Below are positions 1-34,600 of a stretch of DNA of 35,614 nt, one piece after another. The stretch spans positions 1-35,614 of the forward strand of contig CADBSM010000080.1 of assembly GCA_902797315.1 (NCBI GenBank), given 5' to 3'. The notes below the pieces were generated by a model. That model made no database searches. It saw nothing but the letters and a program-made list of their open reading frames with translations, and was not told where the DNA came from. Origin of the DNA: an uncultured Pseudomonadota bacterium. Its GTDB lineage: Bacteria > Pseudomonadota > Alphaproteobacteria > RF32 > CAG-239. Made by a program: the position numbers and the translations under genes. Within the stretch, counting starts at the first letter, position 1. Every line of letters begins with the position of its first letter.

Positions 1-399
1 AAAGCATTATTTGCCGATGACTTCAAAGGCATGGAAGATGCTATCAAAAAAGGGGCATCATTAAATACGCCATACGACAATGAAGGCGGATACACGCCTT
101 TTCTAAAAATATGCAAGGAACATATTTCGCCCGATGTTATTGAATGGGCAATCAAGCATGGTGGCAGTGTGACACAAACAACAATCAATAAAGAAACACC
201 GCTTCATATAATGGCAAACAGAAGAAGTTTTTTTGATGCTTTGGAAGTGTTGATTGCACACGGGGCAGATGTTAATGCTGTTGATATTAATGGCGACACG
301 CCTTTAATGCACCTGCTCGCTCAAACCGCTCTTTTGATACCAATAAAAAAACCACCCGTAAAGGGTGGCTTTTTTATTGGTGCCGACAGAGAGACTTGA
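1..399 (+). CDS. Ankyrin-repeat protein, 5'-truncated by the window edge
   Basis: The frame is open back to nt 1; the track ORF begins at an internal Met at 31. There are about three ANK-like units (YTPFLKICKEH..IKHGGSV; ETPLHIMANRR..LIAHGADVNAVD; INGDTPLMHLL). The last ~18 codons read through a terminator hairpin and into tRNA-Thr on the opposite strand, so the C-terminus looks non-native. Confidence 0.7.
   Translation, partial: KALFADDFKGMEDAIKKGASLNTPYDNEGGYTPFLKICKEHISPDVIEWAIKHGGSVTQTTINKETPLHIMANRRSFFDALEVLIAHGADVNAVDINGDTPLMHLLAQTALLIPIKKPPVKGGFFIGADRET
345..376. terminator. Bidirectional rho-independent terminator
   Basis: A GC stem ccaccc (352-357) / gggtgg (363-368) with a 5-nt loop, flanked by an A-run on the left and a T-run on the right. 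On the minus strand it directly follows the CCA end of tRNA-Thr. Confidence 0.75.
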
Positions 400-453
400 A
401 CTCCCGACCCACTGATTACAAATCAGTTGCTCTACCAACTGAGCTATGTCGGC
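378..453 (-). tRNA. tRNA-Thr (anticodon UGU), CCA encoded
   Basis: The reverse complement folds by hand as GCCGACA-TA-GCTC-AGTTGGTA-GAGC-A-ACTGA-TTTGTAA-TCAGT-GGGTC-GGGAG-TTCAAGT-CTCTC-TGTCGGC-A-CCA. It is 76 nt with a 7-bp acceptor stem and TGT in the anticodon loop. Confidence 0.9.
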
Positions 454-5872: not shown

Positions 5873-5936
5873 TTTTCCCTTTATTTCATAATCTAAAAGA
5901 TAGCTCAAATATTCTTGAAAATATGTTAAAATTTGC

Positions 5937-5964
5937 TTGCATATTCGCAGATAATTTTTATAAT
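5937..5964 (+). promoter_or_regulatory. Candidate promoter of the hydrogenase operon (TTGCAT-N16-TATAAT)
   Basis: Hexamers at 5937-5942 and 5959-5964, about 40 nt upstream of the first hydrogenase gene. The region is AT-rich, so this is only a candidate. Confidence 0.3.
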
Positions 5965-6001
5965 ATCGGCGGAGTTTATATCTATTTTTAAGGAGTATAA
6001 A

Positions 6002-6478
6002 ATGTCAGAAGAGACTTCTCAAGCCTGTCAGGTTGCCGATAAGTGGCGTAAAAAACGCGGCTCGCTGATTATGGCTTTACATGAAATTCAAGGAATTAAA
6101 GGTTATGTCGAATTTAAAGATGCTATGGATTTGTCTGAACGTATGAATATCCCTTTGGCGCGTATCTATGAAGTTTTGACATTTTATAACTTTTTTAAAC
6201 TTGTAGCCCCTGGAAAAGCTGTTATTTCAGTGTGTACGGGTACGGCTTGTTACTTAAAAGGCAATGATAAAGTACTCGATAAGTTCAAATCTGAGCTCAA
6301 AATTAAAGAGGGTGAAAGTACAGCAGATGGCTTATTCCATTTGCAATGTGTGCGTTGTGTCGGTTGCTGTGGTTTAGCGCCGGTTTGCGTTGTTAACGGT
6401 AAAACATACGGACGTATGACGCCAGAACAAGTGCCTGCAATTTTAGATGAATGGCGCGAAGCGTTTAAGGAGAACTAA
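6002..6478 (+). CDS. hydC: NuoE/HydC-type [2Fe-2S] thioredoxin-like ferredoxin subunit
   Basis: Cys pattern CTGTAC...CVRCVGCCGLAP is typical of the NuoE 24-kDa family. AAGGAG lies upstream of ATG 6002; the track ORF starts at 5933. Confidence 0.85.
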   Translation: MSEETSQACQVADKWRKKRGSLIMALHEIQGIKGYVEFKDAMDLSERMNIPLARIYEVLTFYNFFKLVAPGKAVISVCTGTACYLKGNDKVLDKFKSELKIKEGESTADGLFHLQCVRCVGCCGLAPVCVVNGKTYGRMTPEQVPAILDEWREAFKEN

Positions 6479-6479
6479 A

Positions 6480-8162
6480 ATGGTTGATATGGCTGAAATT
6501 AATAAAAGATTTGACATTCATGAAATTGCAAAAAACAAGCTTGCAGAAATTGAAAAATATATTTGTACGATTTATTGCTGTCATTCAACTGGCTGTAAAT
6601 CTTCAGGAAGCGATGAGATCATTGCTCTCATTTCTCAAATTGTTGAGGAGAACGGGTTAAACGAAAAAATTCGTGTCGTTGCTACAGGGTGTATGGGTCT
6701 TTGTGCTCAAGGACCTCTTATCAGAGTTGAAATCAAAGGGCAAAAAGATTTGCTTTTTAAACGTGTTGATTTGGATGCAACAGCAGATATTATGCGCCAA
6801 TATGTTGTTCCTGCCATTGAGGCAAAAGGGCAGGCTGTTCTTCCTGCTAATCTTGAACGCTATGTTTTGTCGCTTGATTTGCCTTTCTTTAAAAAACAAG
6901 AAAAAGTTGTGTTGCAAAATGCTGGGCATTTGGATCCAGAAGACATTACTGAATATATGGCTCATGGTGGTTATTTGGCTTTAGAAAAAGCATTGAAAAC
7001 GATGAGCCCCAAAGAAGTTGTTGATGAGATTAAAAAATCAGGCTTAAGAGGCCGAGGCGGTGGCGGTTTTTCGACAGGTATGAAATGGGAGCTAGCGGCA
7101 GCTGTGCCAACTGTTGATGAAAAATTTATTATCTGTAATGGTGATGAAGGAGACCCGGGGGCATATATGGACCGCTCTATTTTGGAAGGGGATCCTCATG
7201 CCGTGATTGAAGGTATGATGATTGCAGCCTATGCAATTGGGGCAACCTCTGGCTGGTTCTATGTTCGTGCCGAATATCCGCTTGCTGTTGAGAGGCTTGA
7301 AAAAGCGATTAAAGCTTGTAAAAAGAATAGGCTTCTTGGCAACAATATTATGGGCACAGATTTTTGTTTTAATGTTGATATTAGGCTTGGCGCAGGAGCT
7401 TTTGTTTGCGGTGAAGAAACGGCACTTATTCATTCAATTGAAGGTGCAAGAGGTACGCCTCGTCCACGACCGCCTTATCCAACTAACAAAGGTTTATGGG
7501 AAAAACCATCATGTGTTAACAATGTGGAAACCTTAGCAAATGTTTCTAAAATTCTTTTGAAAGGCGCTGATTGGTTTGCATCTTTTGGAACAGAAACATC
7601 TAAAGGAACAAAGGTGTTTGCCTTAACAGGTCAGGTTGAACACTCTGGCTTGATTGAAGTTCCGATGGGGACAACAATTAATGAAATTGTTAATGAAATC
7701 GGAGGCGGCGTACCAATGGGAAAAACCTTAAAGGCCGTGCAAACAGGTGGCCCATCAGGCGGTGTTATACCTGCAGAATATATGGATATGCCAGTCTGTT
7801 ATGAAGAACTTAAAAAGCTTGGCTCAATCATGGGTTCGGGTGGTATGATAGTGATTGATGACAGCTCGGACATGGTTTCACTGGCTAAATTCTACCTCGA
7901 TTTTACAGTTGATGAATCGTGCGGCAAATGTGCGCCATGCCGTATAGGCGGCAAACAAATGCTGACTTTGCTTGATAAAATTAATCGAGGCCGAGGCAAA
8001 AAGAAAGATTTGGAGCTTTTAAAGCAAATCGCATTTGCTATGCAAAAGGCTTCTCTGTGCGGACTTGGTCAGACGGCTCCGAATCCGGTGCTCTCAACCC
8101 TAAGGTTCTATGAAAAAGAATATACAAACAAATTGCTTGATACCCCAAAAGAGGAGAAATAG
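6480..8162 (+). CDS. hydB: NuoF/HydB-type NAD(P)H- and FMN-binding subunit with an N-terminal [2Fe-2S] domain
   Basis: N-terminal thioredoxin-like Cys set (CCHSTGC...GCMGLC), FMN site GRGGGGFSTGMKW, CNGDEGDPGAYMDR, and a [4Fe-4S] site CGKCAPCR...CGLGQ. The start at 6480 follows AAGGAG. No C-terminal 2x[4Fe-4S] ferredoxin module is present. Confidence 0.88.
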   Translation: MVDMAEINKRFDIHEIAKNKLAEIEKYICTIYCCHSTGCKSSGSDEIIALISQIVEENGLNEKIRVVATGCMGLCAQGPLIRVEIKGQKDLLFKRVDLDATADIMRQYVVPAIEAKGQAVLPANLERYVLSLDLPFFKKQEKVVLQNAGHLDPEDITEYMAHGGYLALEKALKTMSPKEVVDEIKKSGLRGRGGGGFSTGMKWELAAAVPTVDEKFIICNGDEGDPGAYMDRSILEGDPHAVIEGMMIAAYAIGATSGWFYVRAEYPLAVERLEKAIKACKKNRLLGNNIMGTDFCFNVDIRLGAGAFVCGEETALIHSIEGARGTPRPRPPYPTNKGLWEKPSCVNNVETLANVSKILLKGADWFASFGTETSKGTKVFALTGQVEHSGLIEVPMGTTINEIVNEIGGGVPMGKTLKAVQTGGPSGGVIPAEYMDMPVCYEELKKLGSIMGSGGMIVIDDSSDMVSLAKFYLDFTVDESCGKCAPCRIGGKQMLTLLDKINRGRGKKKDLELLKQIAFAMQKASLCGLGQTAPNPVLSTLRFYEKEYTNKLLDTPKEEK

Positions 8163-8165
8163 AAA

Positions 8166-9929
8166 ATGGTTAAAGTAACAATTAATGGTATAGAAGTTGA
8201 AGCAAAAGATGGGTCAAGCATTTTAGATGCTGCACGTCTGGCTGCAGTTCATATTCCAACACTGTGTAAACACCCAGATGTTGATCCTTCGGCAGGTTGC
8301 GGTCTGTGTATTGTCAAAGTCGGCGGACGTATTATGCGTTCTTGTTGTACACCCGTTTCTGATGGTATGCAAATTGTGACAGAAGACGAGGAATTGCAGC
8401 AAATTAGAAAAACCGTTTTAAAGCTGATTTTGAGCAACCACCCGAATGATTGCTTGAATTGTTCTCGAAGCGGTAGCTGTGAATTGCAAGATATGACAGC
8501 TCAAATGGGCATTGATCAAAATGAAATTATCAAAATGCTTTCGCAAGAACCTAAAGACGATACAACTAAAGCAATTGTTCTTGATCCTTCAAAATGTATT
8601 GTCTGCGGTAGATGTGTTAACATTTGCCAGAATGTTCAAAACGTTTGGGCTTTAAGCTATTTGAACAGGGGATTTGTGACCAAAGTAACAGGCGCTAACG
8701 ATACAAAACTTGGCGATTCTCCTTGCATTAAATGCGGTCAATGTGCGGCCCATTGCCCTGTCGGTGCAATTACTGATTATGATAACACAGATAAAGTGTT
8801 TGAACTTTTGGCAAACAAAGACTACATAACGGTTGTGCAAATTGCACCGGCTGTGCGTGTGGCTTTAGGTGAAGAGTTCGGTTTTGATTTTGGAAGCAAT
8901 TTAACGGGTAAAATTTATGCTGCTTTACGTAGACTTGGTTTTTCAAAAGTTTTCGATACCAATTTCGGTGCAGATTTGACTATCATTGAAGAGGCTTCAG
9001 AGTTTGTGAAACGTTTTACCCAAAACGATCATCTGCCAATGTTTACGTCTTGCTGCCCAGCGTGGGTTGACTATTTAGAAAAATATTATCCGGAGAATAT
9101 TCCAAACTTGTCATCTTGTAAATCGCCTCATGAAATGGTTGGTGCCATGGCAAAGACTTATTGGGCAGAAAAAGCAGGGGTAGATTCGTCTAAAGTCAAA
9201 GTTGTGTCTGTTATGCCCTGTACAGCTAAAAAATGGGAAATTTCCAGAGACGAGACAATGAGTTCTTCAGGATATCAAGATGTTGATGAGGTGATTACCA
9301 CTCGAGAGCTTGCTAAAATGATTAAACGTGCTGGTATTGATTTTAAGAACTTAAAAGAGGAAGAAGCAGACAATCCACTTGGAGAATATTCCGGTGCGGC
9401 AACAATTTTTGGTGTGACCGGCGGCGTGATGACCGCAGCTTTAAGAACAGCATACTTCTACATTACAGGCGAGGAATTAGGTGCGTTTAATTTTGAAGCC
9501 ATTGAAGGTTTGGAGGCTGTTAAAGTTGCAGAAATTGATATCAAAGGGACGAAAGTACGTATTGCAGTCGTCAATGGTGTCGGCAATGTCGAACCAGTGA
9601 TGGAGCAAATTAATCAAGCGATTTTAAATGGTTTAGAGCTTCCTTATCACTTTGTTGAAGTCATGGCTTGTCCAGGCGGCTGTATTGCGGGCGGCGGACA
9701 ACCGCGCGTTATGGGGCAACGTTTTGAAAAGCCTTGGGGTATTAATGATGAAATTAGAAAGCTCCGTTCATGCGGCTTGAATTGTGAAGATGCCTGCGCT
9801 CAAAACAGATTGTCTCATAAAAATGAATCAATTCAAAAGCTTTATGAGAATTATCTTGGTAAACCTGGCGATGAAAAAGCACATCATCTTTTACATACAA
9901 AATATACAAAACGTGCTTTGTATAAATAG
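8166..9929 (+). CDS. hydA: [FeFe]-hydrogenase catalytic subunit (M3-type architecture)
   Basis: H-cluster motifs L1 FTSCCPAW, L2 MPCTAKKWE and L3 EVMACPGGCIAGGGQP. The N-terminus carries a [2Fe-2S] ferredoxin-like domain, a His-ligated cluster HPNDCLNCSRSGSCELQ, and two CxxCxxCxxxCP motifs. Confidence 0.93.
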   Translation: MVKVTINGIEVEAKDGSSILDAARLAAVHIPTLCKHPDVDPSAGCGLCIVKVGGRIMRSCCTPVSDGMQIVTEDEELQQIRKTVLKLILSNHPNDCLNCSRSGSCELQDMTAQMGIDQNEIIKMLSQEPKDDTTKAIVLDPSKCIVCGRCVNICQNVQNVWALSYLNRGFVTKVTGANDTKLGDSPCIKCGQCAAHCPVGAITDYDNTDKVFELLANKDYITVVQIAPAVRVALGEEFGFDFGSNLTGKIYAALRRLGFSKVFDTNFGADLTIIEEASEFVKRFTQNDHLPMFTSCCPAWVDYLEKYYPENIPNLSSCKSPHEMVGAMAKTYWAEKAGVDSSKVKVVSVMPCTAKKWEISRDETMSSSGYQDVDEVITTRELAKMIKRAGIDFKNLKEEEADNPLGEYSGAATIFGVTGGVMTAALRTAYFYITGEELGAFNFEAIEGLEAVKVAEIDIKGTKVRIAVVNGVGNVEPVMEQINQAILNGLELPYHFVEVMACPGGCIAGGGQPRVMGQRFEKPWGINDEIRKLRSCGLNCEDACAQNRLSHKNESIQKLYENYLGKPGDEKAHHLLHTKYTKRALYK

Positions 9930-9945
9930 GCTATTTTGATAAAAT

Positions 9946-9979
9946 AAAGAACCGCTGAATTTTCATTCAGCGGTTCTTT
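9946..9979. terminator. Bidirectional terminator (15-bp perfect stem)
   Basis: aaagaaccgctgaat (9946-9960) / attcagcggttcttt (9965-9979) with loop tttc. It lies between convergent hydA and the ORF at 9981-10379. Confidence 0.85.
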
Positions 9980-9980
9980 A

Positions 9981-10379
9981 TTATTCATACCAAAGCCAAG
10001 AGATGATTCTTTTGAACAGTGTTGGAATCTTACGAAATGGATTTTGGATTTTAGTTGTCCGGATTTTTGAAATTCGGCGCACCAGAAAGTCTAGGCATAA
10101 TAGCACTAGTTGTACTGTAAACATCCAAAATACGCAGATTGACAAACAACCAAGGAATAATACGACATTTCCCCCAAAAGTTTCAGCGGGGCTTGTGATG
10201 ACTGCAATAAGCAACAATATCGGGCATAAAACTATACCGATACGGCAAATTCTTTGAAGCCAGATGTTTTGCATTTTCAATTCCAACGAACAGGCATAGG
10301 AATTTGTTGCAAAAAAAACTTGGCAACAGGCGACAAAGGTTAGGATGCTTGCTACGGTGATGAGTATAATATCTGCCAT
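9981..10379 (-). CDS. Small hydrophobic membrane protein (about 3 TM segments), unknown function
   Basis: A 132-aa ORF with three long hydrophobic stretches and a basic C-terminal tail. It abuts the terminator. Confidence 0.5.
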   Translation of the reverse strand: MADIILITVASILTFVACCQVFFATNSYACSLELKMQNIWLQRICRIGIVLCPILLLIAVITSPAETFGGNVVLFLGCLSICVFWMFTVQLVLLCLDFLVRRISKIRTTKIQNPFRKIPTLFKRIISWLWYE

Positions 10380-10393
10380 AATATGAATAAAAA

Positions 10394-10780
10394 TTAGTTG
10401 TGATAAAAACTGCTGTCTCCATGCAAAAGCCAGCCCAAAAAAGTTTTCATGAGGTCAGCAATTTTTGCGGCAAGCAATACGCAAAGCCAAAAAAAAGCAA
10501 CCCCACAGCATACAAGAACAGGTCCAAATATCAAATTGATCACAACCGACCAGCTTTTATTAGGTGGAATTTCACCAAAAAATGCAAATGGAGTCGGAAT
10601 GGCAATCAAAGAGGTGACAACCCATAATAAGATAAGGATAACGAACATAAGTCGCACCGCAAATTGAACAGTCTTGTTTCGATAGCAAAAAGTGCCAAAA
10701 GAGTCGACACTTTCCCGACCCTCCATATAGGAGAGAAACAGGGCAATGATAAACATTGCAAGTATTAAAAAGTGACACAT
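10394..10780 (-). CDS. Small hydrophobic membrane protein (about 3 TM segments), unknown function
   Basis: A 128-aa ORF in tandem with the previous one, with similar size and topology. Confidence 0.5.
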   Translation of the reverse strand: MCHFLILAMFIIALFLSYMEGRESVDSFGTFCYRNKTVQFAVRLMFVILILLWVVTSLIAIPTPFAFFGEIPPNKSWSVVINLIFGPVLVCCGVAFFWLCVLLAAKIADLMKTFLGWLLHGDSSFYHN

Positions 10781-18365: not shown

Positions 18366-19985
18366 ATGATTGTATCTATTCCTACAACCCCTTATGAAAA
18401 CCAAAAAATGGGCACAGCCGGCATTAGGCAAAAAGTTCATGTTGTTGAACAAAAAAATTATCTCGAGAATTTTGTTCAAAGTTTGTTTAATGCAATCGGT
18501 GGCGTTAAAGATCAAGTTTTTGTTTTAGGGGGGGATGGACGCTACTATAATGATATCGCATTGCAAAAAATTATTAAAATGGCAGCTGCAAATGGTATGA
18601 AAAAATTAATTATCGGACAAAACGGAATGCTTTCGACACCGGCATCTTCACACATTTTACTCAAAAATCATGCCGATGGTGGTTTGGTGCTTTCGGCTTC
18701 ACATAACCCCGGTGGACCTCATGGTGATTTTGGTATTAAATATGCAACAAAATCAGGAGGACAGTGTTCATCAGTTATTAGTGCACGGATTTATGAACAA
18801 ACAAAAATGATATCCTCTTATCAGATGATGCAAACACCAGATATCGACTTGTCAAAACTTGGACGACAAATGCTTGGGAATATGGAAATAGAGGTTATTG
18901 ATCCAATCAAAGATTATGAAAAATTAATGGCTCAAATTTTTGATTTTGATGCGATTAAAAAGCTTTTTGCAAGCGGTTTTCGCTTTGTTTTTGATGCGAT
19001 GAACGCAGTAACAGGACCTTATGCTGTGAGAATTTTTGAAGAGGTTTTAGGTGCCCCAAAAGGCTCTGTTCTGCAAGCTGTTCCAATGCCAGATTTTGGG
19101 GGATTGCACCCAGATCCAAACCTCGTTTATGCAAAGCATTTGGTTGATTTAATGGCTTCAGACGAGGCGCCTGATTTTGCTGCGGCTAACGATGGTGATG
19201 GTGACCGAAATATGATTTTAGGACGTAAGTTTTTCGTAAGTCCAAGTGACAGTTTGGCTATTTTGACGGATCATTATCACGATATTCCAGGCTATCAGAA
19301 CGGTATTTTCGGCGTAGCTAAATCAGCAGCAACTTCAACCGCAGTGTGTCGTGTTGCACAAAAGCTTAAAATTGATTGCTATGAAGTGCCAACAGGTTGG
19401 AAAAATTTTTGCAATTTGATGGATTCAAACAGAATTACGTTTTGTGGTGAGGAAAGTTTTGGAACAGGCTCGTCGCATATTCGTGAGAAAGACGGCATAT
19501 GGGCTGTCCTTTTCTGGCTTAATATTATTGCAAAAACAGGCCAATCTGTTGAACAAATTACACGCGAATTTTGGGCGAAATATGGTCGAACGTATTATCT
19601 TAGATTTGATTTTGATGCGATAGATCCTTCGACAGCTGATTTGTTAATGTCTGATTTAGAAAAAAAATTGAGTTCATTTGTAGGACAAAGCTATGAAGGG
19701 TATAATGTTTGTTCGGCATATCCTTTCATTTATAAAGATCCGGTTGATGGGTTGCAGACAAAAAACGGACTTCTAGTTTATTTTGACGGTGGTGCACGCA
19801 TTTGTTATAGGTTGTCCGGGACGGGTACAAACGGTGCTACATTGCGTGTTTATATTGAGGCATATGAAAAAGAAAATTTCGATGAAGATCCTGTCCAAAA
19901 ATTAAAAACTTTGTTGCTTGTCGCAAGTCAATTGGCTCAAATTAAAGAGCGCACGGGAAAAGACAAACCAGATTTGACAACCTGA
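18366..19985 (+). CDS. pgm: Phosphoglucomutase (alpha-D-glucose-phosphate specific)
   Basis: Active-site SASHNPGG, metal loop DGDGDRN and sugar loop GEESFG. Confidence 0.92.
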   Translation: MIVSIPTTPYENQKMGTAGIRQKVHVVEQKNYLENFVQSLFNAIGGVKDQVFVLGGDGRYYNDIALQKIIKMAAANGMKKLIIGQNGMLSTPASSHILLKNHADGGLVLSASHNPGGPHGDFGIKYATKSGGQCSSVISARIYEQTKMISSYQMMQTPDIDLSKLGRQMLGNMEIEVIDPIKDYEKLMAQIFDFDAIKKLFASGFRFVFDAMNAVTGPYAVRIFEEVLGAPKGSVLQAVPMPDFGGLHPDPNLVYAKHLVDLMASDEAPDFAAANDGDGDRNMILGRKFFVSPSDSLAILTDHYHDIPGYQNGIFGVAKSAATSTAVCRVAQKLKIDCYEVPTGWKNFCNLMDSNRITFCGEESFGTGSSHIREKDGIWAVLFWLNIIAKTGQSVEQITREFWAKYGRTYYLRFDFDAIDPSTADLLMSDLEKKLSSFVGQSYEGYNVCSAYPFIYKDPVDGLQTKNGLLVYFDGGARICYRLSGTGTNGATLRVYIEAYEKENFDEDPVQKLKTLLLVASQLAQIKERTGKDKPDLTT

Positions 19986-23397: not shown

Positions 23398-25863
23398 GTG
23401 AAAAATCAAGATAAAACAGAGATTAATGAAATTGATAAAGCTCGATTGAAACTGTCAATAGAGCATTATATTAAATATTTTATTGGCAAGCGCCCTATGG
23501 AGCTCACAAAAGAAGAGGCTTTGCAAGCAATTTCGCTTGCAGTCAGAGAATTTGCTCTTGATAAAATGTATGCTACTATTTCACGCTATAATGCCGTCGG
23601 CTCTAAGCGAGTATATTATCTTTCAATTGAATATTTAATAGGTAGATCTCTTGAAAATAATCTACATAATTTGGATTTGTTCAAACTTATTAAAGACATT
23701 CATATTGAAGGAATGCCGAATTTGTCGATGAGTGATATTTATGATGCAGAGTATGATCCTGCTTTAGGTAATGGTGGTTTGGGCAGATTAGCGGCGTGTT
23801 ATCTTGATTCTATGGCTTCGCTTGGATTGGCAGGGTTTGGTTATGGTATCAATTATCAATTTGGGTTATTTAAACAAAAGTTTGATCATGGTTGGCAGCT
23901 AGAACAGGCTGATACGTGGCTCTGTGAAGAATCTCCATGGCAATTTCCAAGGCATGACAGAACAATCGTTATTCCGATAAATGGTAGGGTTGAAAGCTAT
24001 ACAGCAGCGAATGGAAGAACATATTTTTCATGGGTTGACACACATACAATCTATGGCGTTCCTTATGATTTTCCTATTGTGGGGTATGCTGGGAAATCGG
24101 TCAACTATCTAAGGTTGTTTTCAGCCAAAACAGATGATGAGCTTAATATCAAAATTTTTAATGAAGGTGGCTACATGGAGGCTGTTAAAGATAAGATTCA
24201 AACAGAAACAGTGTCCAAGGTTTTATACCCATCAGATAATTTAGAATCAGGCAAGACATTACGCTTGCTTCAACAATATTTCTTTGTGTCTTGCGCTATC
24301 CAAGATATTATTCGTCGCTTTTTGGAAAAAAGTAATGATTTTCACAAAATGCCTGATTACGTTTGTATTCAACTTAATGACACACATCCAGCGCTTGCAA
24401 TTGCTGAAATGATGCGCCTTTTGATGGATGAATATGGGCAAGAATGGGACGATGCGTGGAAAATTACAACACAAATTTTTGCTTATACAAACCATACATT
24501 GCTGCCAGAAGCTTTAGAAAAATGGCCGAGTCGTATTTTTAATAAGCTCTTGCCAAGACACTTGCAAATTATTTATGAAATCAATCGTCGTTTTATGGAA
24601 TTTGCCCGTGAACGATTTAATGGCAATGAAGAAAAACTTTCTAAAGTTTCAATTGTTGCGGGAGATGGAGATCATCAGGTTATTAGAATGGCCAATCTCT
24701 CAATTGTCGGTTCGTTTTCAGTTAATGGTGTCGCAAAATTGCACTCAGAGCTGATTAAAACATCTTTGGTGCCTGAGTTTTATGAATTGTGGCCTGAAAA
24801 GTTTATCAATATTACAAATGGCATTACGCCTCGTCGCTGGCTTTTACATGCTAATACAGCGCTTTCAGAGTTGATTGAAAATAAAATAGGAACATCTTGG
24901 ATTACTCAATTAGATGAACTTTCAAAACTTGAACCATATGCCACAGATGAAGAATTTGTGCATCAATTTGCGAATATCAAACAACTTAATAAAGAACGTT
25001 TGGCTTTCCAGATTTTTAAGCTGACAGGTGTTGTTGTTGATCCGCAAAGTGTTTACATTATTCACGCCAAGCGCATACATGAATACAAACGTCAATTGCT
25101 CACTATTCTTCAGGTTATTGGTGAATATTTTGCGATTATTAAAGACAATATCCGTCCAAAAAACAAAAAAACATATATTTTTGCTGGTAAAGCGGCGCCT
25201 TCGTATAGCTATGCTAAACTGGTGATTAAGCTGATTAATAATGTGGCAGATGTTGTCAATAATGACTCAAGAGTAAATGATGCGCTTAAGGTCATTTTTA
25301 TTCCGGATTATAAAGTTTCAATTGCCGAAAAAATGATGCCGGCCGCTGATATCAGTTTGCAAGTATCTACGGCAGGTTTCGAAGCTTCCGGAACGGGAAA
25401 TATGAAATTTGCGCTAAATGGGGCTTTGACAGTGGGTACATATGATGGTGCGAATATCGAAATTAGGGAAAAGGTTGGGACAGACAACTTTTATCTCTTT
25501 GGTTTAAGAGAAGAAGAAATAAGACAAGAAAGACCAAACTATAATCCACGGGATCTTTATGAAAAATCAGATTATATCAAGCGCATTTTAAATGCATTAA
25601 ATTCAAACATCTTTTGCGAAAAAGATCACGCGCTTTTATTCAAGCCAATTTATGAAGATTTGCTGCATCGAGATTATTATTTTGTGTTGGCTGATTTAGA
25701 AGATTTTGACAACACAATGCACCAAGCTGAACAAGATTATACAGACAGTAAACTTTGGTTTAAAAAAGCGATTTTGAATGTGGCTCGTATCGGCTATTTT
25801 TCATCAGACAGAGCTGTTATGGAGTATGCTCAAAAAATTTGGCATATCAAACCGGTTGATTAA
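23398..25863 (+). CDS. glgP: Glycogen/maltodextrin phosphorylase
   Basis: EASGTGNMKFALNGALT (the PLP lysine), LGNGGLGRLAACYLDS and NDTHPALAI motifs. The GTG start follows AAGGA. Confidence 0.93.
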   Translation: MKNQDKTEINEIDKARLKLSIEHYIKYFIGKRPMELTKEEALQAISLAVREFALDKMYATISRYNAVGSKRVYYLSIEYLIGRSLENNLHNLDLFKLIKDIHIEGMPNLSMSDIYDAEYDPALGNGGLGRLAACYLDSMASLGLAGFGYGINYQFGLFKQKFDHGWQLEQADTWLCEESPWQFPRHDRTIVIPINGRVESYTAANGRTYFSWVDTHTIYGVPYDFPIVGYAGKSVNYLRLFSAKTDDELNIKIFNEGGYMEAVKDKIQTETVSKVLYPSDNLESGKTLRLLQQYFFVSCAIQDIIRRFLEKSNDFHKMPDYVCIQLNDTHPALAIAEMMRLLMDEYGQEWDDAWKITTQIFAYTNHTLLPEALEKWPSRIFNKLLPRHLQIIYEINRRFMEFARERFNGNEEKLSKVSIVAGDGDHQVIRMANLSIVGSFSVNGVAKLHSELIKTSLVPEFYELWPEKFINITNGITPRRWLLHANTALSELIENKIGTSWITQLDELSKLEPYATDEEFVHQFANIKQLNKERLAFQIFKLTGVVVDPQSVYIIHAKRIHEYKRQLLTILQVIGEYFAIIKDNIRPKNKKTYIFAGKAAPSYSYAKLVIKLINNVADVVNNDSRVNDALKVIFIPDYKVSIAEKMMPAADISLQVSTAGFEASGTGNMKFALNGALTVGTYDGANIEIREKVGTDNFYLFGLREEEIRQERPNYNPRDLYEKSDYIKRILNALNSNIFCEKDHALLFKPIYEDLLHRDYYFVLADLEDFDNTMHQAEQDYTDSKLWFKKAILNVARIGYFSSDRAVMEYAQKIWHIKPVD

Positions 25864-28489: not shown

Positions 28490-28744
28490 GTATTTAAACC
28501 TCAAATAAAATTAAAACAAATTTTCAGACCTTTTCACCAGTCTTGTTTTTTTGTTATCAAATTTAGGCTCTTTTGACAAGCTTTTTTTTAAATGTTAATC
28601 CACAAAAAGATTCTTTTGGTTTTTAACTATTTGATTTTGTGGTGTTTTATTGAGTTTTCTTTTTCTTGGCTCACGTGCATAAATAAGTTGTTATCTTTTG
28701 ATCAATACTTATATATATCACAAAATTGTCAAAAAGGAGAAAAG

Positions 28745-29671
28745 ATGAAAGTTGCAATCGTGGGAGCAGGACAGGTCGGAAGCGCTACAGCTTTTGCGCT
28801 TATTTTAAGGGGTGTGGCAAGAGAGGTCGTTTTGGTTGATATAAACAAACAAAAAGCTACAGCTGAAGCACTTGATATTTCACACGCTACAACTTTTGCA
28901 TATGCCGGCAAAATTTATAGTGGAGATTATGCAGATATAAAGGGTTCTGACGTCGTTATTATTGCTGCCGGGGCTAATCAAAAGCCCAAAGAGACGCGGA
29001 TTTCTTTAATGCAGAGAAATGTTGCAATCTTAAAAAATATTGTTGACAATATCCTAAAATATGCGCCTAAAGCCTTTGTTTTGGTGGCTTCTAATCCCGT
29101 TGATATTATGACAAATCACACATTAAAGCTTTCAGGTCTTCCTCAAAATCAGGTTTTTGGAAGTGGTACAATCCTAGATACGTCAAGATTTCGTACGCTA
29201 ATTGGTGAATATTTCGGTGTTTCTTCAAAATCGGTACATGCTAATGTTTTGGGCGAACATGGGGATAGTGAGGTTTTGGTGTGGTCAAATGCTGATATTG
29301 GAACACTTTCCATTGAAGAGTTTGCTCAAGAACGCCACAAAAGTTTATCTGAAGAAGTGAAGGGTGAAATAGATAATCATGTGCGTTATGCCGCTTACAA
29401 AATTATTGAAGGCAAAGGCGCAACTTTTTATGGCATTGCAGGAGCTCTTGCGCGTATTTGTCAGGCAATATCTACTAATGAAAATGCTGTTTTAACAGTT
29501 TCTTCGTTTCATCAAAACATTGAAGGGGTCGAAGATGTTTGCTTGTCTTTACCTTCAATTGTTAATAAAACAGGAATTGAACAAGTTTTTATGCCTTCAC
29601 TTTCAGACAAAGAACGTGAACTGTTGGCTTTAAGTGCTTTGAAGCTCAAAAATTACATAAAAAACATTTAA
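28745..29671 (+). CDS. ldh: L-lactate dehydrogenase
   Basis: MKVAIVGAGQVGSATAFAL; AGANQKPKETR, where Gln at the specificity position is the LDH type rather than the MDH type; SNPVD; DTSRFR; LGEHGDSE. AAGGAG precedes ATG 28745. Confidence 0.87.
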   Translation: MKVAIVGAGQVGSATAFALILRGVAREVVLVDINKQKATAEALDISHATTFAYAGKIYSGDYADIKGSDVVIIAAGANQKPKETRISLMQRNVAILKNIVDNILKYAPKAFVLVASNPVDIMTNHTLKLSGLPQNQVFGSGTILDTSRFRTLIGEYFGVSSKSVHANVLGEHGDSEVLVWSNADIGTLSIEEFAQERHKSLSEEVKGEIDNHVRYAAYKIIEGKGATFYGIAGALARICQAISTNENAVLTVSSFHQNIEGVEDVCLSLPSIVNKTGIEQVFMPSLSDKERELLALSALKLKNYIKNI

Positions 29672-31626: not shown

Positions 31627-31663
31627 CTTTCCAAGGTATTGCAATATTTTTTTAGAGGTCCTC

Positions 31664-34600
31664 ATGATCAAATTTTTTGTTTTTGCGTTTATTCTTTTTT
31701 CTTCAATAAAGCCGACTTTTGCGCAGACAGAAGATCCGCAGCATTTGGAAAGTCGTTGCGGCAAGGGTTGCGTTGATAAACTTCTTGATTGTGAAGAGCT
31801 TGGCTATCAAAAAAATCTTTATTGTCCTGAAGGATATGTGATTTGTCCGTTTGATCCAGAATATATCTGGTGCAAAACTTATACTTGTGACATGGGCGGT
31901 CTTTATACAGAGGATGAAGTTTCTGCTAAAAGGGCAGAGGGATATCTATGCCACAAGTACAGATATCACGGACACACTTGTTATGAGTGCGATGATGTAG
32001 ATGAAGAGCGCTGCCAGTGGACGGCTGCCAATGTTGGACAAGGCAAGCCATCAGGTCAGCTTTGTCCCAATGGTAAATACACAGAATGTGTCAAAGAGTG
32101 TTATTTGCAAGATAAATCATCTCAAATTCCTTCAGGAGAAGCAGTTGTGCCGGTGTATACAAAATGCTTCAACTGCGGGGTTGAAGAAAGAATCGTGACA
32201 GATTTTGAGTGTAAGGCGGGTTATATTAAAAAGAATGGAAAATGTGAACCCAATGGGTGTCCGTTACCTGTGACACATACTGATATTTTGTATGGAACAA
32301 ATGTGACAGATTGTGATACCAAAGCTCACCCTGAAGGTTGGTATTTTGAATCAAACGGCAGAAGCGGAGACAAAGCTTGCGGTCGCTGTATTCCTAAAGA
32401 ATGTCAGGCTGGATACACGCCAGGTGAGGTATGTCCTTCAGGTGCTGGATATCAGCATCACACGGCAGGCTATTCAGGTGATCAGCTTTGCGGTTATTGC
32501 GAAAACCTAACGTGTGTTGCGCCATATAGCGCAAACTATCAAAAAATAGAAGATTGTCCGAAGCTTTCTAATGAAAATTGGAGCATAAGCAAAGCATGGA
32601 CATATCAAAGGTCCACTCAGCAGTCGGGTGATTTGGCTTGCGGCAGGTGTGAGCCCAATCAGTGTAATGCAGGTTATACTGAGCAATATCAAAGTGTTGA
32701 AGATTGCCCGAATTCGACCGGATATGTGTGGGATTATGATAAAACAAAATTTTATGGCGATTTATATTGCGGTGTTTGTATCCCCAAAACTTGCGAAAAA
32801 GGTTCAATAGAACTGACGATTTCAGATTGTCCGTACGTTAGTTCGGTTGGTGCTTATATACAAGACACTGGTTTGTACATGGGAGAAAAACCATGCAAGG
32901 AATGCCAATGCGATGCGTCAAGCTGTCCATTTAAAACAACTCAGAGCAGCAGTTCGGCTGTCGTTGTCGGTGATGGTGGAGAGGGTGTCACACCATGTTG
33001 CGATGGTGTATCATACCAAGGTTGTAAGGTTAAAGCTTCGTGCTGCGGTTCTACGGTCAAGAACATTGAACATGCCACAGGTTATAAGGTCAATTGCACG
33101 GCTTGCGGCGAAACATATTGGGGTGCGACAGCGTGTGAAGGAAAATACAAGCCTAATGCTTGCGGTATTTGTGTAGAACAGCGTTGTGAAGATATCAGCA
33201 ATCAGCTCTTTTCAAAACCAGATTGCACCAATCCTTTTCCCAACCTGCCATTTACACGTTATGGCTATACTGCCGTTCCTTCAACAGAATATCCCGGTTG
33301 CTACAGCTGTGTTTGTGACGTGACAGCAAGCGAGTGTCCTTATACAGATGATTTTCGAGATACTTCGCGGGCATATATCGGTCTTGGACAAGGTCGAAAA
33401 GTGTGTTGCGACGGTTCTTATCGGGAATGTGTCAACGAAACTTGTCAAGGTTTGCAACAATGCCCTGAAAATGCTGATCTGTGCTCACAGTGTGATGCCT
33501 GCGGAAAAACATATTACAGAGTACACAACTGTAAAACAGGTTATGCCGGTGTAAGTTGTGAGGAGTGCGCAGCAAACTATGTTGAACAAAACGGAGTTTG
33601 TATTCCGGTTGTTGGTTGCGGAGACCATGGCTATCAGGTAGATGATGGGTGTGTGTGTGATGAAGGTTACAAAGGTAAGAATTGTGATGAATGTGATGAG
33701 GGTTATGTCAAAGACAAAAACAGCGGATTGTGTCGACCGGCTGAATGTTCGGATAATAAGTGGAAAACTGCATGCGATTCAGACTGTGAAAATTGTGTTT
33801 CAAAAACGATGAAATCCGGCAAAAGTACGATTCAATGCTTTGAAGTAACCCCTAAAAACTGTAATGAAATATGTGCTAATGCAGAAGGCGTTATTTCCGA
33901 CAGCAGTATGTGTGGTGAATCTAGCTTAGAACGCTGGAAACAAGGTAGGGGGCTTTACCAATATTTAAGTTCGGCTACGACGAGAAAGAGCGTTTCAGTT
34001 TGCGGCAAAACATGTTATGTGCCTGACGGATGCCCTGAAGGTGAGGCTTTAAGCAATGATCAACATCAGCAAAAAATTGAAGAAGGTTACGTTTGTCTGG
34101 AATCACATGAGAATGCAGTAGGTGAAATGTGCTATCTTTGTGTGCCTGATAGTTGTGAGGGCGACTTTGTCACAGAAAAACAAAAAAATGAGGCTGAAGC
34201 AAGCGGTGCAATATGTACACGTGTAGCTGCTTTTTCAACAACAGGTGGTTTTTGCTACAAATGTGTTTCAGATACTTGTGACGATGATTATGTGTGGTCA
34301 AAGGAAAAATTGTCTTTAGATTTGTATGCTTATGCAACGCAAGATATTTTCACTTACGGACCGCCACAGTCTTCTGAATTTGCAAGTTATATGAGTTTTC
34401 CTGAAGATATTTATGAAGGTCAAGGAAAAGAGTATTACATAGTTTATCCATATGCAGATTGTGATAACCATTCGGAACCGGGACAAGACGTATTGTGTTA
34501 CAAAAATGCTGCCGGACATTATTGTTATCAAAGATATGATACATATTTCGGGGCAACCGAAGAACCCATATGTTCTAGTTTAACGCACAATACTTTGTAT

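What the first reader, a model, noticed from the sequence alone, without database searches (positions are those of the whole stretch)
5937..9979. Complete NuoE/NuoF/HydA [FeFe]-hydrogenase operon in an alphaproteobacterium-like, host-associated genome
Three tightly packed genes lie between a candidate promoter and a 15-bp-stem terminator. They encode a NuoE-like [2Fe-2S] protein, a NuoF-like FMN/NAD(H) protein and an [FeFe]-hydrogenase with intact L1, L2 and L3 H-cluster motifs. That is the gene organisation of NAD(P)H-linked or electron-bifurcating (group A3) hydrogenases. The surrounding genes (CckA-type kinase, Hda, MipZ-like protein, hpf-ptsN) are typical of Alphaproteobacteria. The ankyrin protein and AT-richness suggest a symbiont lifestyle. 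[FeFe]-hydrogenases coupled to NuoE/NuoF homologues are the hydrogenosomal arrangement in anaerobic eukaryotes. An alphaproteobacterial symbiont carrying this cassette therefore bears on debates about the origin of organellar hydrogen metabolism, and on syntrophic H2 transfer within anaerobic protist hosts. No hydE, hydF or hydG maturase genes are in the window.
Basis: partly seen in the sequence, partly recalled or inferred. Interest (0 to 1): 0.75.

Follow-up and report, generated by a model that had tools for sequence, protein, structure and literature searches.

The report
Gut alphaproteobacterial hydrogenase lacking ferredoxin branch
The window carries an intact three-gene NAD(H)-linked [FeFe]-hydrogenase operon from an uncultured herbivore-gut alphaproteobacterium; such operons were described in 2016, but the flavoprotein subunit in this lineage has lost the whole domain that related enzymes use to exchange electrons with ferredoxin.

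Summary
hydC (6002-6478), hydB (6480-8162) and hydA (8166-9929) are translationally coupled genes, followed by an 18-bp-stem terminator. All cofactor motifs are intact and dN/dS is about 0.04-0.06.

The closest relatives (84-89% identical) are rumen and herbivore-gut MAGs labelled Alphaproteobacteria, probably order RF32. So "host-associated alphaproteobacterium" holds, but nothing indicates a protist endosymbiont.

The main idea is already published. Degli Esposti et al. (2016) reported NuoE-NuoF-HydA operons with HydEFG and PFO in gut-metagenome alphaproteobacteria and linked them to hydrogenosome origins. HydB and HydC here are of the bacterial HydBC/Bfu type, not the mitochondrial NuoE/F type found in hydrogenosomes. 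The nearest relatives outside the clade are Planctomycetes and Spirochaetes.

I found one feature not described in the papers searched. HydB keeps the flavin-pocket residues typical of bifurcating enzymes and the N-terminal [2Fe-2S] domain. It lacks the Cys3His (B2/Zn) site and the C-terminal 2x[4Fe-4S] (B3/B4) ferredoxin-docking domain. The loss is shared by a clade with 86% bootstrap support that includes human-gut and Planctomycete homologues.

The most likely function is a non-bifurcating NADH:H+ oxidoreductase (about 0.5). The rival is HoxEFU-like confurcation without that domain (about 0.3).

The parts
5909..6001 (.). Intergenic region of 93 bp between the divergently transcribed murF (starts at 5908, minus strand) and hydC. 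It contains weak sigma-70-like hexamers (5926-5955) and the hydC ribosome-binding site AGGAG.
   Evidence: The promoter match is 9 of 12 and such matches are only about twice the shuffle expectation, so a promoter here is inferred, not shown.
6002..6478 (+). hydC: a NuoE/HoxE-like thioredoxin-fold [2Fe-2S] subunit of 158 aa, carrying cluster C1.
   Evidence: PF01257 at 1e-45. The best NCBIfam hit is HoxE at 140 bits, below its cutoff. The motif C-x4-C...C-x3-C is present. It is 83-88% identical to homologues in the rumen MAG loci. dN/dS is 0.04-0.05.
6480..8162 (+). hydB: a NuoF-like FMN/NAD(H) subunit of 560 aa. It has an N-terminal [2Fe-2S] domain, an FMN/NADH pocket, SLBB and one [4Fe-4S] cluster (B1). 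It lacks the Cys3His (B2/Zn) site and the C-terminal 2x[4Fe-4S] (B3/B4) domain.
   Evidence: Pfam and NCBIfam domains. PDB alignments stop at about residue 530 of the roughly 600-residue bifurcating HydB chains. The C-terminus reads ...EYTNKLLDTPKEEK* and has no Cys. The conserved Cys3His ligands are replaced by Asp464 and Lys551. The bifurcating-type motifs PGAYMDR, GAGAFVCGE and GGPSG are retained. dN/dS is 0.04-0.05.
8166..9929 (+). hydA: the catalytic [FeFe]-hydrogenase subunit of 587 aa with M3 architecture ([2Fe-2S], a His-ligated [4Fe-4S], 2x[4Fe-4S] and the H-cluster domain with a fused small-subunit domain).
   Evidence: Fe_hyd_lg_C at 1e-98 and Fe_hyd_SSU. TIGR02512 scores 518 bits (cutoff 406) and NF040763 scores 779.6 bits (cutoff 765). 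The L1, L2 and L3 motifs and all FeS motifs are intact. The best PDB matches are HydA1 of bifurcating HydABC, 8a6t_A at 565 bits and 7q4v_A at 538 bits.
9943..9982 (.). Intrinsic-terminator-like hairpin (18-bp stem, 4-nt loop) shared by hydA and the convergent minus-strand ORF that ends at 9981.
   Evidence: Fold energy is -26 kcal/mol, z = -9.15, and 0 of 200 shuffles fold as well. Sequence shown.

Best explanation
The locus is the hydCBA operon of an uncultured herbivore-gut alphaproteobacterium, probably of the RF32 lineage. It encodes a cytoplasmic heterotrimeric [FeFe]-hydrogenase.

The proposed electron path is: NADH delivers a hydride to FMN in HydB; electrons pass through the HydB [4Fe-4S] cluster B1 into the four accessory FeS clusters of HydA; they reach the H-cluster, where protons are reduced to H2. 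The path can run in reverse.

This lineage's HydB has lost the Cys3His B2/Zn hinge site and the C-terminal B3/B4 ferredoxin-like domain. In characterised HydABC enzymes those elements carry the low-potential electrons and dock ferredoxin. The enzyme therefore most likely works as a simple, ferredoxin-independent NAD(H):H+ oxidoreductase, not as an electron-confurcating enzyme. H2 evolution from NADH alone is only favourable at low H2 partial pressure, which hydrogenotrophs may help maintain in the rumen.

Shown here: gene content, intact cofactor motifs, purifying selection, clade-wide loss of the ferredoxin branch, and presence of the maturase HydG in close relatives.

Inferred: NADH specificity, independence from ferredoxin, and the physiological direction of the reaction.
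For: - Operon structure and domain content.
- Intact H-cluster and FeS motifs, and dN/dS of 0.04-0.06 against two relatives.
- HydB ends immediately after the NADH_4Fe-4S domain in the window and in all 9 rumen-MAG loci that carry a complete hydB. In all 8 outgroup loci with a complete stand-alone hydB (Spirochaetia, Gastranaerophilales, Clostridia and others) the two CxxCxxCxxxCP motifs are kept. A ninth outgroup locus, L015, has a long oxidoreductase fusion there instead.
- The four Cys3His ligands, conserved in 97% of 30 canonical HydBs, are all substituted or absent.
- All 119 close homologues of the sister sequence P0121 lack the two ferredoxin-type motifs in the C-terminal tail; 116 of them keep all three bifurcating-type motifs with no Cys in the tail. 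They sit in hydCBA operons.
- No stand-alone 2x[4Fe-4S] ferredoxin gene lies in the window.
- Literature: the HydB C-terminal domain is present in all characterised bifurcating [FeFe]-hydrogenases and absent from non-bifurcating NADH-dependent ones (PMC9499530; PMC11406978). Ferredoxin docks on this domain, and a T. kivui HydB C-terminal deletion has low bifurcating activity (PMC10021017). B3 and B4 are described as essential (PMC11829005).
- A close relative (L011) encodes a separate monomeric group B [FeFe]-hydrogenase and AdhE next to the operon. Reduced ferredoxin could therefore be reoxidised independently.
- HydG lies 4-6 kb upstream of hydCBA in relatives L003 and L014.
Against: - HydB keeps every other marker of bifurcating enzymes: Ala and Met in PGAYMDR, Phe in GAGAFVCGE, GGPSG, and the N-terminal [2Fe-2S] domain. 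It therefore fails three of the four sequence criteria of Losey et al. for non-bifurcating beta subunits.
- The HydB clade is nested inside bifurcating-type HydBs, not among proven non-bifurcating ones.
- A 2026 preprint reports that cyanobacterial HoxEFUYH confurcates NADH and ferredoxin although HoxF lacks the same C-terminal domain.
- No biochemistry exists for any member of this clade.
- Rumen H2 levels may often be too high for H2 evolution from NADH alone.
Confidence: 0.5

Rival explanations
1. The enzyme is still an electron-confurcating or bifurcating hydrogenase. Ferredoxin would exchange electrons directly with the HydC [2Fe-2S] cluster and/or the N-terminal [2Fe-2S] cluster of HydB, as proposed for the E1 and F2 clusters of cyanobacterial HoxEFUYH. 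The C-terminal domain would then be dispensable.
For: - The core B1-FMN-C1 'flavobicluster', defined as the minimal bifurcation site (PMC11829005), is complete.
- The bifurcation-type flavin-pocket residues and GGPSG are conserved in 116 of 119 clade members, and the N-terminal [2Fe-2S] domain is kept.
- The domain architecture resembles that of HoxF, which is reported to confurcate without the C-terminal domain (bioRxiv 10.64898/2026.06.25.734504).
- HydB is as similar to a HoxF-annotated protein (P0128, 51% identity, 590 bits) as to a canonical HydB carrying the C-terminal domain (P0127, 51%, 591 bits).
- The best NCBIfam hit for HydC is HoxE.
Against: - An engineered C-terminal deletion in T. 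kivui HydB lowers or abolishes bifurcation.
- Unlike the HoxF-like P0128, this clade has also lost the Cys3His site.
- The Hox result is a preprint on a [NiFe] enzyme.
- The retained signature residues may simply reflect recent descent from bifurcating ancestors.
Confidence: 0.3
2. The cassette would be an anciently inherited alphaproteobacterial trait of a symbiont of anaerobic protists, and so would directly inform the origin of hydrogenosomal H2 metabolism.
For: - The operon occurs widely in gut Alphaproteobacteria.
- An alphaproteobacterial ancestry of eukaryotic [FeFe]-hydrogenases has been argued from exactly these organisms (PMC4967309).
- RF32 genomes from ruminants are reduced (about 1.6 Mb) and have lost amino-acid biosynthesis functions (PMC8199421).
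- An ankyrin-repeat ORF is present.
Against: - The closest homologues outside the clade are Planctomycetes (HydB 60%, HydA 55% identity; 65.6% G+C) and Spirochaetia (HydA 54%), not other Alphaproteobacteria.
- HydB and HydC are of the Bfu type, not the mitochondrial complex-I type.
- Eukaryotic hydrogenases are described as polyphyletic lateral acquisitions, and hydrogenosomal NuoF groups with mitochondrial complex I (PMC13556243).
- None of the RF32 papers opened mentions a protist association.
- No phylogeny that includes eukaryotic sequences could be built here.
Confidence: 0.1
3. The operon is decaying or non-functional, because no maturase genes lie in the window and hydB is truncated.
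For: No hydE, hydF or hydG is in the 35.6-kb window. HydB is about 40-70 residues shorter than the solved bifurcating HydB chains.
Against: - dN/dS is 0.04-0.06 on all three genes, with saturated dS.
- All metal-ligand motifs are intact.
- The same short HydB is conserved in every rumen-MAG locus with a complete hydB and in all 119 close homologues of P0121, across two phyla.
- HydG (898 bits) lies near the operon in relatives.
Confidence: 0.02

Closest known systems
NuoE-NuoF-HydA (M3) operons of gut-metagenome Alphaproteobacteria (Azospirillum sp. CAG:239, Acetobacter sp. CAG:977), Degli Esposti et al. 2016, PMC4967309
   Same: The gene order, the type of host lineage and the gut habitat are the same. 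The human-gut homologue P0370 (accession CCZ29750.1, from the same CCZ accession series as the paper's CAG:977 proteins) is 82% identical in HydB, 68% in HydA and 79% in HydC, and sits in the same hydCBA operon.
   Different: The window comes from a rumen or herbivore-gut sublineage; its best matches are 84-89% identical MAG proteins. The passages of the 2016 paper that were read do not mention that the NuoF-like subunit lacks the ferredoxin branch.
Electron-bifurcating HydABC (Bfu family): T. maritima 7P5H, A. woodii 7Q4V, T. kivui 8A6T
   Same: These are the best-scoring solved relatives of HydA (565 and 538 bits) and HydB (636 bits). The subunit set is the same. They share the B1-FMN-C1 core, the N-terminal [2Fe-2S] domain of HydB, and the flavin-pocket residues Ala/Met and Phe plus GGPSG.
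   Different: The Cys3His (B2/Zn) hinge site and the C-terminal B3/B4 ferredoxin-like domain are missing, that is, the proposed ferredoxin docking site. The locus is a natural equivalent of the engineered T. kivui HydB C-terminal deletion, which has low bifurcation activity.
[quoted passage not shown]
   Same: They are multimeric HydA/NuoF-like/NuoE-like enzymes whose beta subunit lacks the B3/B4 clusters. That is the functional model proposed here.
   Different: According to published descriptions, those beta subunits also lack the N-terminal [2Fe-2S] domain and the B2 site. They carry Thr/Ser and Lys/Ser/Ala in place of Ala and Met, Tyr in place of Phe, and no GGPSG. The window's HydB has the bifurcating-type residue at all of these positions and groups with bifurcating-type HydBs. 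No S. wolfei sequence was available for direct alignment.
HoxEFU diaphorase module of cyanobacterial bidirectional [NiFe]-hydrogenase (2026 preprint)
   Same: HoxF and the window's HydB share the layout N-terminal [2Fe-2S], FMN/NADH pocket, one [4Fe-4S] cluster and no C-terminal ferredoxin-like domain. HydC resembles HoxE.
   Different: The catalytic partner is a [NiFe] hydrogenase with HoxU, not an [FeFe] HydA. The HoxF-annotated homologue P0128 keeps the conserved Cys and His at the two core-aligned Cys3His positions and two Cys in its short tail, all of which this clade has lost. P0128 falls outside the clade in the NJ tree, although the deeper nodes are poorly supported.
Hydrogenosomal Hyd + NuoE + NuoF (Trichomonas; Caecomyces churrovis, PMC13556243)
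   Same: These are functionally analogous: an [FeFe]-hydrogenase working with 24-kDa-like and 51-kDa-like NADH-module proteins. The fungal system is shown to be NADH-dependent and ferredoxin-independent.
   Different: The eukaryotic NuoE and NuoF derive from mitochondrial complex I and are not monophyletic with HydB. The window's HydB scores about 275-290 bits against mitochondrial NDUFV1 and about 635 bits against HydB.

Membership tests
[FeFe]-hydrogenase, catalytic group A (HydA) | H-cluster motifs L1 (TSCCPxW), L2 (MPCxxKxxE) and L3 (ExMACxxGCxxGGGQP) | tested here: met
   All three motifs are present at residues 294, 350 and 498.
[FeFe]-hydrogenase, catalytic group A (HydA) | Curated family models matched above their cutoffs | tested here: met
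   TIGR02512 scores 518 bits (cutoff 406), NF040763 scores 779.6 (cutoff 765) and PF02906 matches at 1e-98. The name of NF040763, 'NADH-dependent, group A6', is not diagnostic. HydAs paired with HydBs that carry the C-terminal domain also pass it (L023 at 795 bits, L017 at 820 bits).
Multimeric group A3-type HydABC operon | An M3-type HydA encoded next to NuoF-like (HydB) and NuoE-like (HydC) genes | tested here: met
   The gene order is hydC-hydB-hydA, with 1-nt and 3-nt spacers and internal ribosome-binding sites. HydDB itself was not available.
Electron-bifurcating Bfu family (Schut et al. 2022) | BfuB core: FMN domain, SLBB and the [4Fe-4S] cluster B1, plus BfuC with the [2Fe-2S] cluster C1 | tested here: met
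   PF01512, PF10531/PF22461 and PF10589 match HydB. The motif C481-x2-C484-x2-C487...C527 is present. PF01257 matches HydC.
Electron-bifurcating Bfu family (Schut et al. 2022) | C-terminal ferredoxin-type 2x[4Fe-4S] domain in BfuB (IPR017896; clusters B3 and B4) | tested here: not met
   HydB ends 27 residues into and after the GQTAPNP motif with no Cys and no Fer4 Pfam hit. The same is true in all 9 rumen-MAG loci with a complete hydB and in all 119 close homologues of P0121.
Electron-bifurcating Bfu family (Schut et al. 2022) | Cys3His site (B2 cluster or Zn hinge) | tested here: not met
   The ligand positions are 97% conserved in 30 canonical HydBs. In the window they are Asp464 and Lys551, and the two tail Cys are absent.
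Electron-bifurcating Bfu family (Schut et al. 2022) | N-terminal thioredoxin-like [2Fe-2S] domain in BfuB (B5), and bifurcating-type flavin-pocket residues (Ala/Met; Phe; GGPSG) | tested here: met
   The PF01257-like N-terminus (residues 41-116 of the 571-aa ORF) has C-x4-C...C-x3-C. PGAYMDR, GAGAFVCGE and GGPSG are all present. The mapping of the Phe/Tyr criterion of Losey et al. onto GAGA[F/Y] is my inference, because the published T. maritima numbering (367) could not be reconciled.
Non-bifurcating NADH-dependent [FeFe]-hydrogenase (S. wolfei type, Losey 2020) | Beta subunit lacks the extra FeS domains of bifurcating enzymes | tested here: met
   The C-terminal B3/B4 domain is absent. The N-terminal [2Fe-2S] domain is, however, retained.
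Non-bifurcating NADH-dependent [FeFe]-hydrogenase (S. wolfei type, Losey 2020) | Thr/Ser and Lys/Ser/Ala at T. maritima positions 232 and 234; Tyr near FMN; no GGPSG | tested here: not met
   The window has Ala and Met, Phe, and GGPSG.
Non-bifurcating NADH-dependent [FeFe]-hydrogenase (S. wolfei type, Losey 2020) | H2 production from NADH without ferredoxin | not testable with these tools
   This needs enzyme assays.
Hydrogenosomal/mitochondrial NuoE-NuoF module | Complex-I-type 51-kDa sequence (PGTFKDR and GAGAYICGE, no N-terminal [2Fe-2S] domain) that groups with mitochondrial NDUFV1 | tested here: not met
   HydB scores 275-290 bits against NDUFV1 chains and 635 bits against HydB. The published phylogeny is cited.
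Alphaproteobacteria, gut order RF32 | Genome-level placement using marker genes (GTDB) | tested here: inconclusive
   The syntenic relatives are MAGs submitted as Alphaproteobacteria, Rhodospirillaceae or 'Azospirillum sp.' from rumen and faeces. A CckA-like kinase, HdaA and a MipZ-like protein are in the window. RF32/CAG-239 MAGs exist in the same ruminant dataset, but the specific MAG identifiers were not found in the stored supplement. No marker-gene tree was built.

The most novel reading that the evidence does not exclude
A large clade of gut HydABC enzymes, routinely counted as 'group A3 bifurcating', has lost the entire ferredoxin branch of HydB (the B2/Zn site plus B3/B4). The clade spans rumen and human-gut Alphaproteobacteria and some Planctomycetes. 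It keeps a bifurcation-type flavin pocket under strong purifying selection.

The most novel reading not excluded by the evidence is that these enzymes still confurcate NADH and ferredoxin through the HydC and N-terminal HydB [2Fe-2S] clusters, as proposed for HoxEFU. That would show that the B3/B4 domain, currently regarded as essential, is dispensable in an [FeFe] HydABC.
Probability: 0.3. Interest if true: 0.65.

Novelty: new variant of a known kind. Interest (0 to 1): 0.35.

Why it matters
The operon in gut Alphaproteobacteria and its bearing on hydrogenosome origins were published in 2016, and close homologues are already deposited and annotated.

The part that could matter is the HydB architecture:
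- Surveys of rumen and human-gut H2 metabolism commonly assign hydrogenase function from the class of HydA alone. This clade would be scored as an electron-bifurcating A3 enzyme, although it lacks the domain that structural and mutational work regards as necessary for ferredoxin coupling.
- If it is a plain NADH hydrogenase, it is an independent derivation of the S. wolfei-type solution from a bifurcating ancestor. It would tie the redox balance of these organisms to ambient H2.
- If it still confurcates, it is a natural minimal HydABC for dissecting the Bfu mechanism.
- In either case it is a ready-made natural counterpart to the engineered T. kivui C-terminal deletion.

Tried and rejected
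- Looking up the window's own HydA among encoding contigs found nothing, so the sample of origin remains unknown.
- The Rfam scan of the whole window found only two tRNAs and no riboswitch or leader near the operon.
- The promoter scan gave only weak matches, about twice the shuffle expectation. I do not count it as evidence.
- I considered using the NCBIfam name 'NADH-dependent [FeFe] hydrogenase, group A6' as functional evidence. I rejected this because HydAs whose partner HydB carries the C-terminal domain pass the same model.
- I looked for a separately encoded replacement for the missing domain. No ORF with a CxxCxxCxxxC motif occurs in the window apart from hydA.
- Literature searches for RF32 or CAG-239 together with hydrogenase, for RF32 with rumen protozoa, and for HydB lacking the C-terminal domain in gut organisms returned nothing specific.
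- A supplement search for the taxonomy of the specific RGIG MAGs failed because the stored file is cut.
- T. maritima position 367 (the Phe/Tyr criterion of Losey et al.) could not be mapped unambiguously, because no T. maritima sequence was available for alignment.
- The first bootstrap run timed out and was redone with a faster distance routine. Deep nodes in that NJ tree are poorly supported, so I cannot exclude that the clade is sister to HoxF-type proteins.
- No eukaryotic HydA sequences could be obtained, so the hydrogenosome-ancestry question was addressed only through the literature.

Full report

Yes. Three ORFs on the plus strand fill 5933-9929. Alignment to relatives and the positions of ribosome-binding sites refine the gene models:
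- hydC is 6002-6478, with AGGAG 8 nt before the ATG.
- hydB is 6480-8162, with AAGGAG inside the end of hydC and a 1-nt spacer.
- hydA is 8166-9929, with GAGGAG upstream and a 3-nt spacer.

Pfam and NCBIfam give the expected content:
- HydC is a thioredoxin-like [2Fe-2S] protein.
- HydB is a 51-kDa-type FMN/NADH protein with an N-terminal [2Fe-2S] domain, SLBB and the NADH_4Fe-4S domain.
- HydA is an M3-type [FeFe]-hydrogenase with a fused small-subunit domain.

The L1, L2 and L3 H-cluster motifs and all accessory FeS motifs are intact. The operon ends in an 18-bp-stem hairpin at 9943-9982, with -26 kcal/mol and z = -9.15. The hairpin is shared with a convergent ORF. The upstream 'promoter' is only a weak consensus match. 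No HydE, HydF or HydG model matches any ORF of 110 aa or more in the window.

**2. Whose genome is it?**

HydA has more than 100 database clusters at 74-89% identity. Where a source names them, the name is 'MAG: Alphaproteobacteria bacterium'.

A scan of one genome per GTDB species returned 14 loci at 83-88% identity. All come from rumen or herbivore-gut MAGs: yak, roe deer, cattle, reindeer and horse faeces. Their labels are Alphaproteobacteria, 'uncultured Rhodospirillaceae' or 'uncultured Azospirillum sp.'.

Three of these loci share the window's upstream gene order def-nusB-nrdR-murF-hydCBA, at 72-84% protein identity. The operon is therefore embedded in housekeeping context. The window also encodes a CckA-like kinase, HdaA, a MipZ-like protein and hpf-ptsN.

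The dataset that produced several of these MAGs describes ruminant RF32-order Alphaproteobacteria with reduced genomes of about 1.6 Mb (PMC8199421). RF32/CAG-239 entries appear in its supplement. RF32 is therefore likely, but I did not test it with marker genes.

L-lactate dehydrogenase, glycogen phosphorylase and phosphoglucomutase in the window point to a fermentative lifestyle. So do AdhE and a monomeric group B [FeFe]-hydrogenase beside the operon in relative L011. I found nothing that indicates an intracellular or protist-associated lifestyle.

**3. Is the operon functional?**

dN/dS against two relatives is 0.04-0.06 for all three genes, with saturated dS. HydG (TIGR03955, 898 bits) lies 4-6 kb upstream of hydCBA in relatives L003 and L014. 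Degli Esposti et al. list HydE, HydF, HydG, PFO and ferredoxin for the human-gut members. The 'decaying operon' scenario is effectively excluded for the lineage. The source genome itself could not be searched.

**4. The unexpected feature: HydB has no ferredoxin branch.**

Against solved structures, HydB aligns best to the beta subunits of bifurcating hydrogenases: the NiFe-hydrogenase subunit B of 7T2R and the HydB chains of 7Q4V/8A5E, 8A6T and 7P5H. The alignment covers only about residues 1-530 of those roughly 600-residue chains.

The protein ends ...GQTAPNPVLSTLRFYEKEYTNKLLDTPKEEK*, and hydA starts three bases later. All nine rumen-MAG loci with a complete hydB end in the same way. Among nine outgroup loci with a complete hydB, eight stand-alone genes (Spirochaetia, Gastranaerophilales, Clostridia and others) continue for about 75-90 residues and carry two CxxCxxCxxxCP motifs. 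The ninth, L015, carries a long oxidoreductase fusion at that position instead.

In an alignment of 30 canonical HydBs, four further ligand positions are 97% conserved: a Cys at window-HydB position 464, a His at 551, and two Cys just downstream. These form the Cys3His 'B2/Zn' site. The window's clade has Asp or Ser at the first, Lys or Asp at the second, and has lost the two downstream Cys (one member keeps a single Cys). This is a coherent evolutionary loss of the hinge site plus clusters B3 and B4. It is not an assembly truncation.

HydB nevertheless retains the residues proposed to distinguish bifurcating from non-bifurcating beta subunits (PMC7311640):
- Ala and Met in PGAYMDR.
- Phe in GAGAFVCGE.
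- GGPSG.
- The N-terminal [2Fe-2S] domain.

**5. How widespread is this form?**

I searched 1.8 billion representative proteins with HydB and built a bootstrapped NJ tree of the core domain. The tree puts the window's clade with two other sequences that lack the C-terminal domain (P0121, P0123) at 86% support. That group lies inside a 100%-supported group of 42 mostly C-terminal-domain-bearing, bifurcating-type HydBs.

All 119 close homologues of P0121 lack the two ferredoxin-type motifs in the C-terminal tail; 116 keep all three bifurcating-type motifs with no Cys in the tail, and one has a single Cys. They include:
- MAGs named by submitters as Planctomycetes bacterium (P0294) or with a name beginning 'Phy' (cut off in the output; P0292). 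P0294's locus L028 has a hydCBA operon and 65.6% G+C.
- Very prevalent gut Alphaproteobacteria. P0370 (CCZ29750.1) was seen on at least 1,000 contigs (counting is capped at 1,000), including one of 1.9 Mb. Its loci L029-L031 have the same operon.

The clade therefore crosses phyla, which fits lateral transfer.

**6. Mechanism.**

Structural and mutational work places ferredoxin docking on the HydB C-terminal domain. It reports low or abolished bifurcation when that domain is deleted in T. kivui (PMC10021017; PMC11829005). The domain is described as present in all characterised bifurcating [FeFe]-hydrogenases and absent from the non-bifurcating NADH-dependent ones (PMC9499530; PMC11406978).

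On that basis the best-supported model is a ferredoxin-independent, reversible NAD(H):H+ oxidoreductase. Reduced ferredoxin would be handled elsewhere, for example by the neighbouring group B hydrogenase in relatives.

The main rival is that the enzyme still confurcates. The minimal B1-FMN-C1 'flavobicluster' and the bifurcation-type pocket are intact. A 2026 preprint also reports NADH plus ferredoxin confurcation by HoxEFUYH, whose HoxF likewise lacks the C-terminal domain. A HoxF-annotated homologue does keep the conserved Cys and His at the two core-aligned ligand positions and two Cys in its tail, which this clade has lost.

I give these two models about 0.5 and 0.3. Only biochemistry can decide between them.

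**7. Comparison with what is known, and novelty.**

Degli Esposti et al. published this in 2016 for human-gut members of the same group (PMC4967309).

The 'hydrogenosomal arrangement' is a functional analogy. Hydrogenosomal NuoE and NuoF derive from mitochondrial complex I and are not monophyletic with HydB (PMC13556243). The window's HydB is clearly of the HydB/Bfu type.

The NCBIfam label 'NADH-dependent, group A6' is not informative about bifurcation.

I could not find, in the papers searched, any description of the clade-wide loss of the B2/B3/B4 branch combined with retained bifurcation-type residues. I therefore rate the locus as a new variant of a known kind.

Noticed in passing
window 31660-35614 (+), runs off the 3' end: A single open frame of at least 1,300 codons encodes a protein with a signal peptide (MIKFFVFAFILFSSIKPTFAQ). 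The protein is extremely cysteine-rich and repeat-like. The ORF listing does not list it because it runs off the end of the window.
   Followed up: no
window 9981-10379 (-) and 10394-10780 (-): Two adjacent small hydrophobic ORFs (132 and 128 aa) lie convergent to hydA and share its terminator hairpin. Neither has a Pfam or NCBIfam match. They are not found downstream of hydA in the related loci.
   Followed up: partly
window 31-399 (+) and 378-453 (-): An ankyrin-repeat ORF (Ank_2, 1.5e-14) has a 3' end that overlaps a tRNA-Thr gene on the opposite strand.
   Followed up: no
L011 11831-19044 (-); also L008-L010: In some rumen relatives hydCBA is followed by adhE (1389 bits), a monomeric group B [FeFe]-hydrogenase (TIGR04105 at 512 bits, cutoff 450) and a second, divergent hydrogenase-like ORF of 569 aa. 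The lineage therefore carries several [FeFe]-hydrogenases.
   Followed up: partly
L003 2130-3545 (-); L014 1856-3442 (-): The H-cluster maturase HydG (TIGR03955 at 898 bits) lies 4-6 kb upstream of hydCBA in L003. A clustered homologue lies in L014, in a different gene context. The syntenic position in the window holds trxB and a nitroreductase-like gene instead.
   Followed up: partly
L028 7502-11454 (Planctomycetes MAG, 65.6% G+C): A high-GC Planctomycete contig carries a hydCBA operon with the same ferredoxin-branch-less HydB. Identity to the window is 60% for HydB, 55% for HydA and 54% for HydC. This suggests inter-phylum transfer of this enzyme form.
   Followed up: partly
L015 about 6201-9237 (Lentisphaerae MAG); representatives P0124, P0149: Some HydB homologues of about 1,030-1,060 aa replace the B3/B4 domain with a long C-terminal extension that looks like a GltD-type NAD(P)H oxidoreductase. 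This is another variant at the same position.
   Followed up: no
window 28592-29671, 23398-25863, 18366-19985: L-lactate dehydrogenase, glycogen phosphorylase and phosphoglucomutase lie in the same window. They are consistent with a glycogen-using fermentative metabolism that needs outlets for NADH.
   Followed up: no
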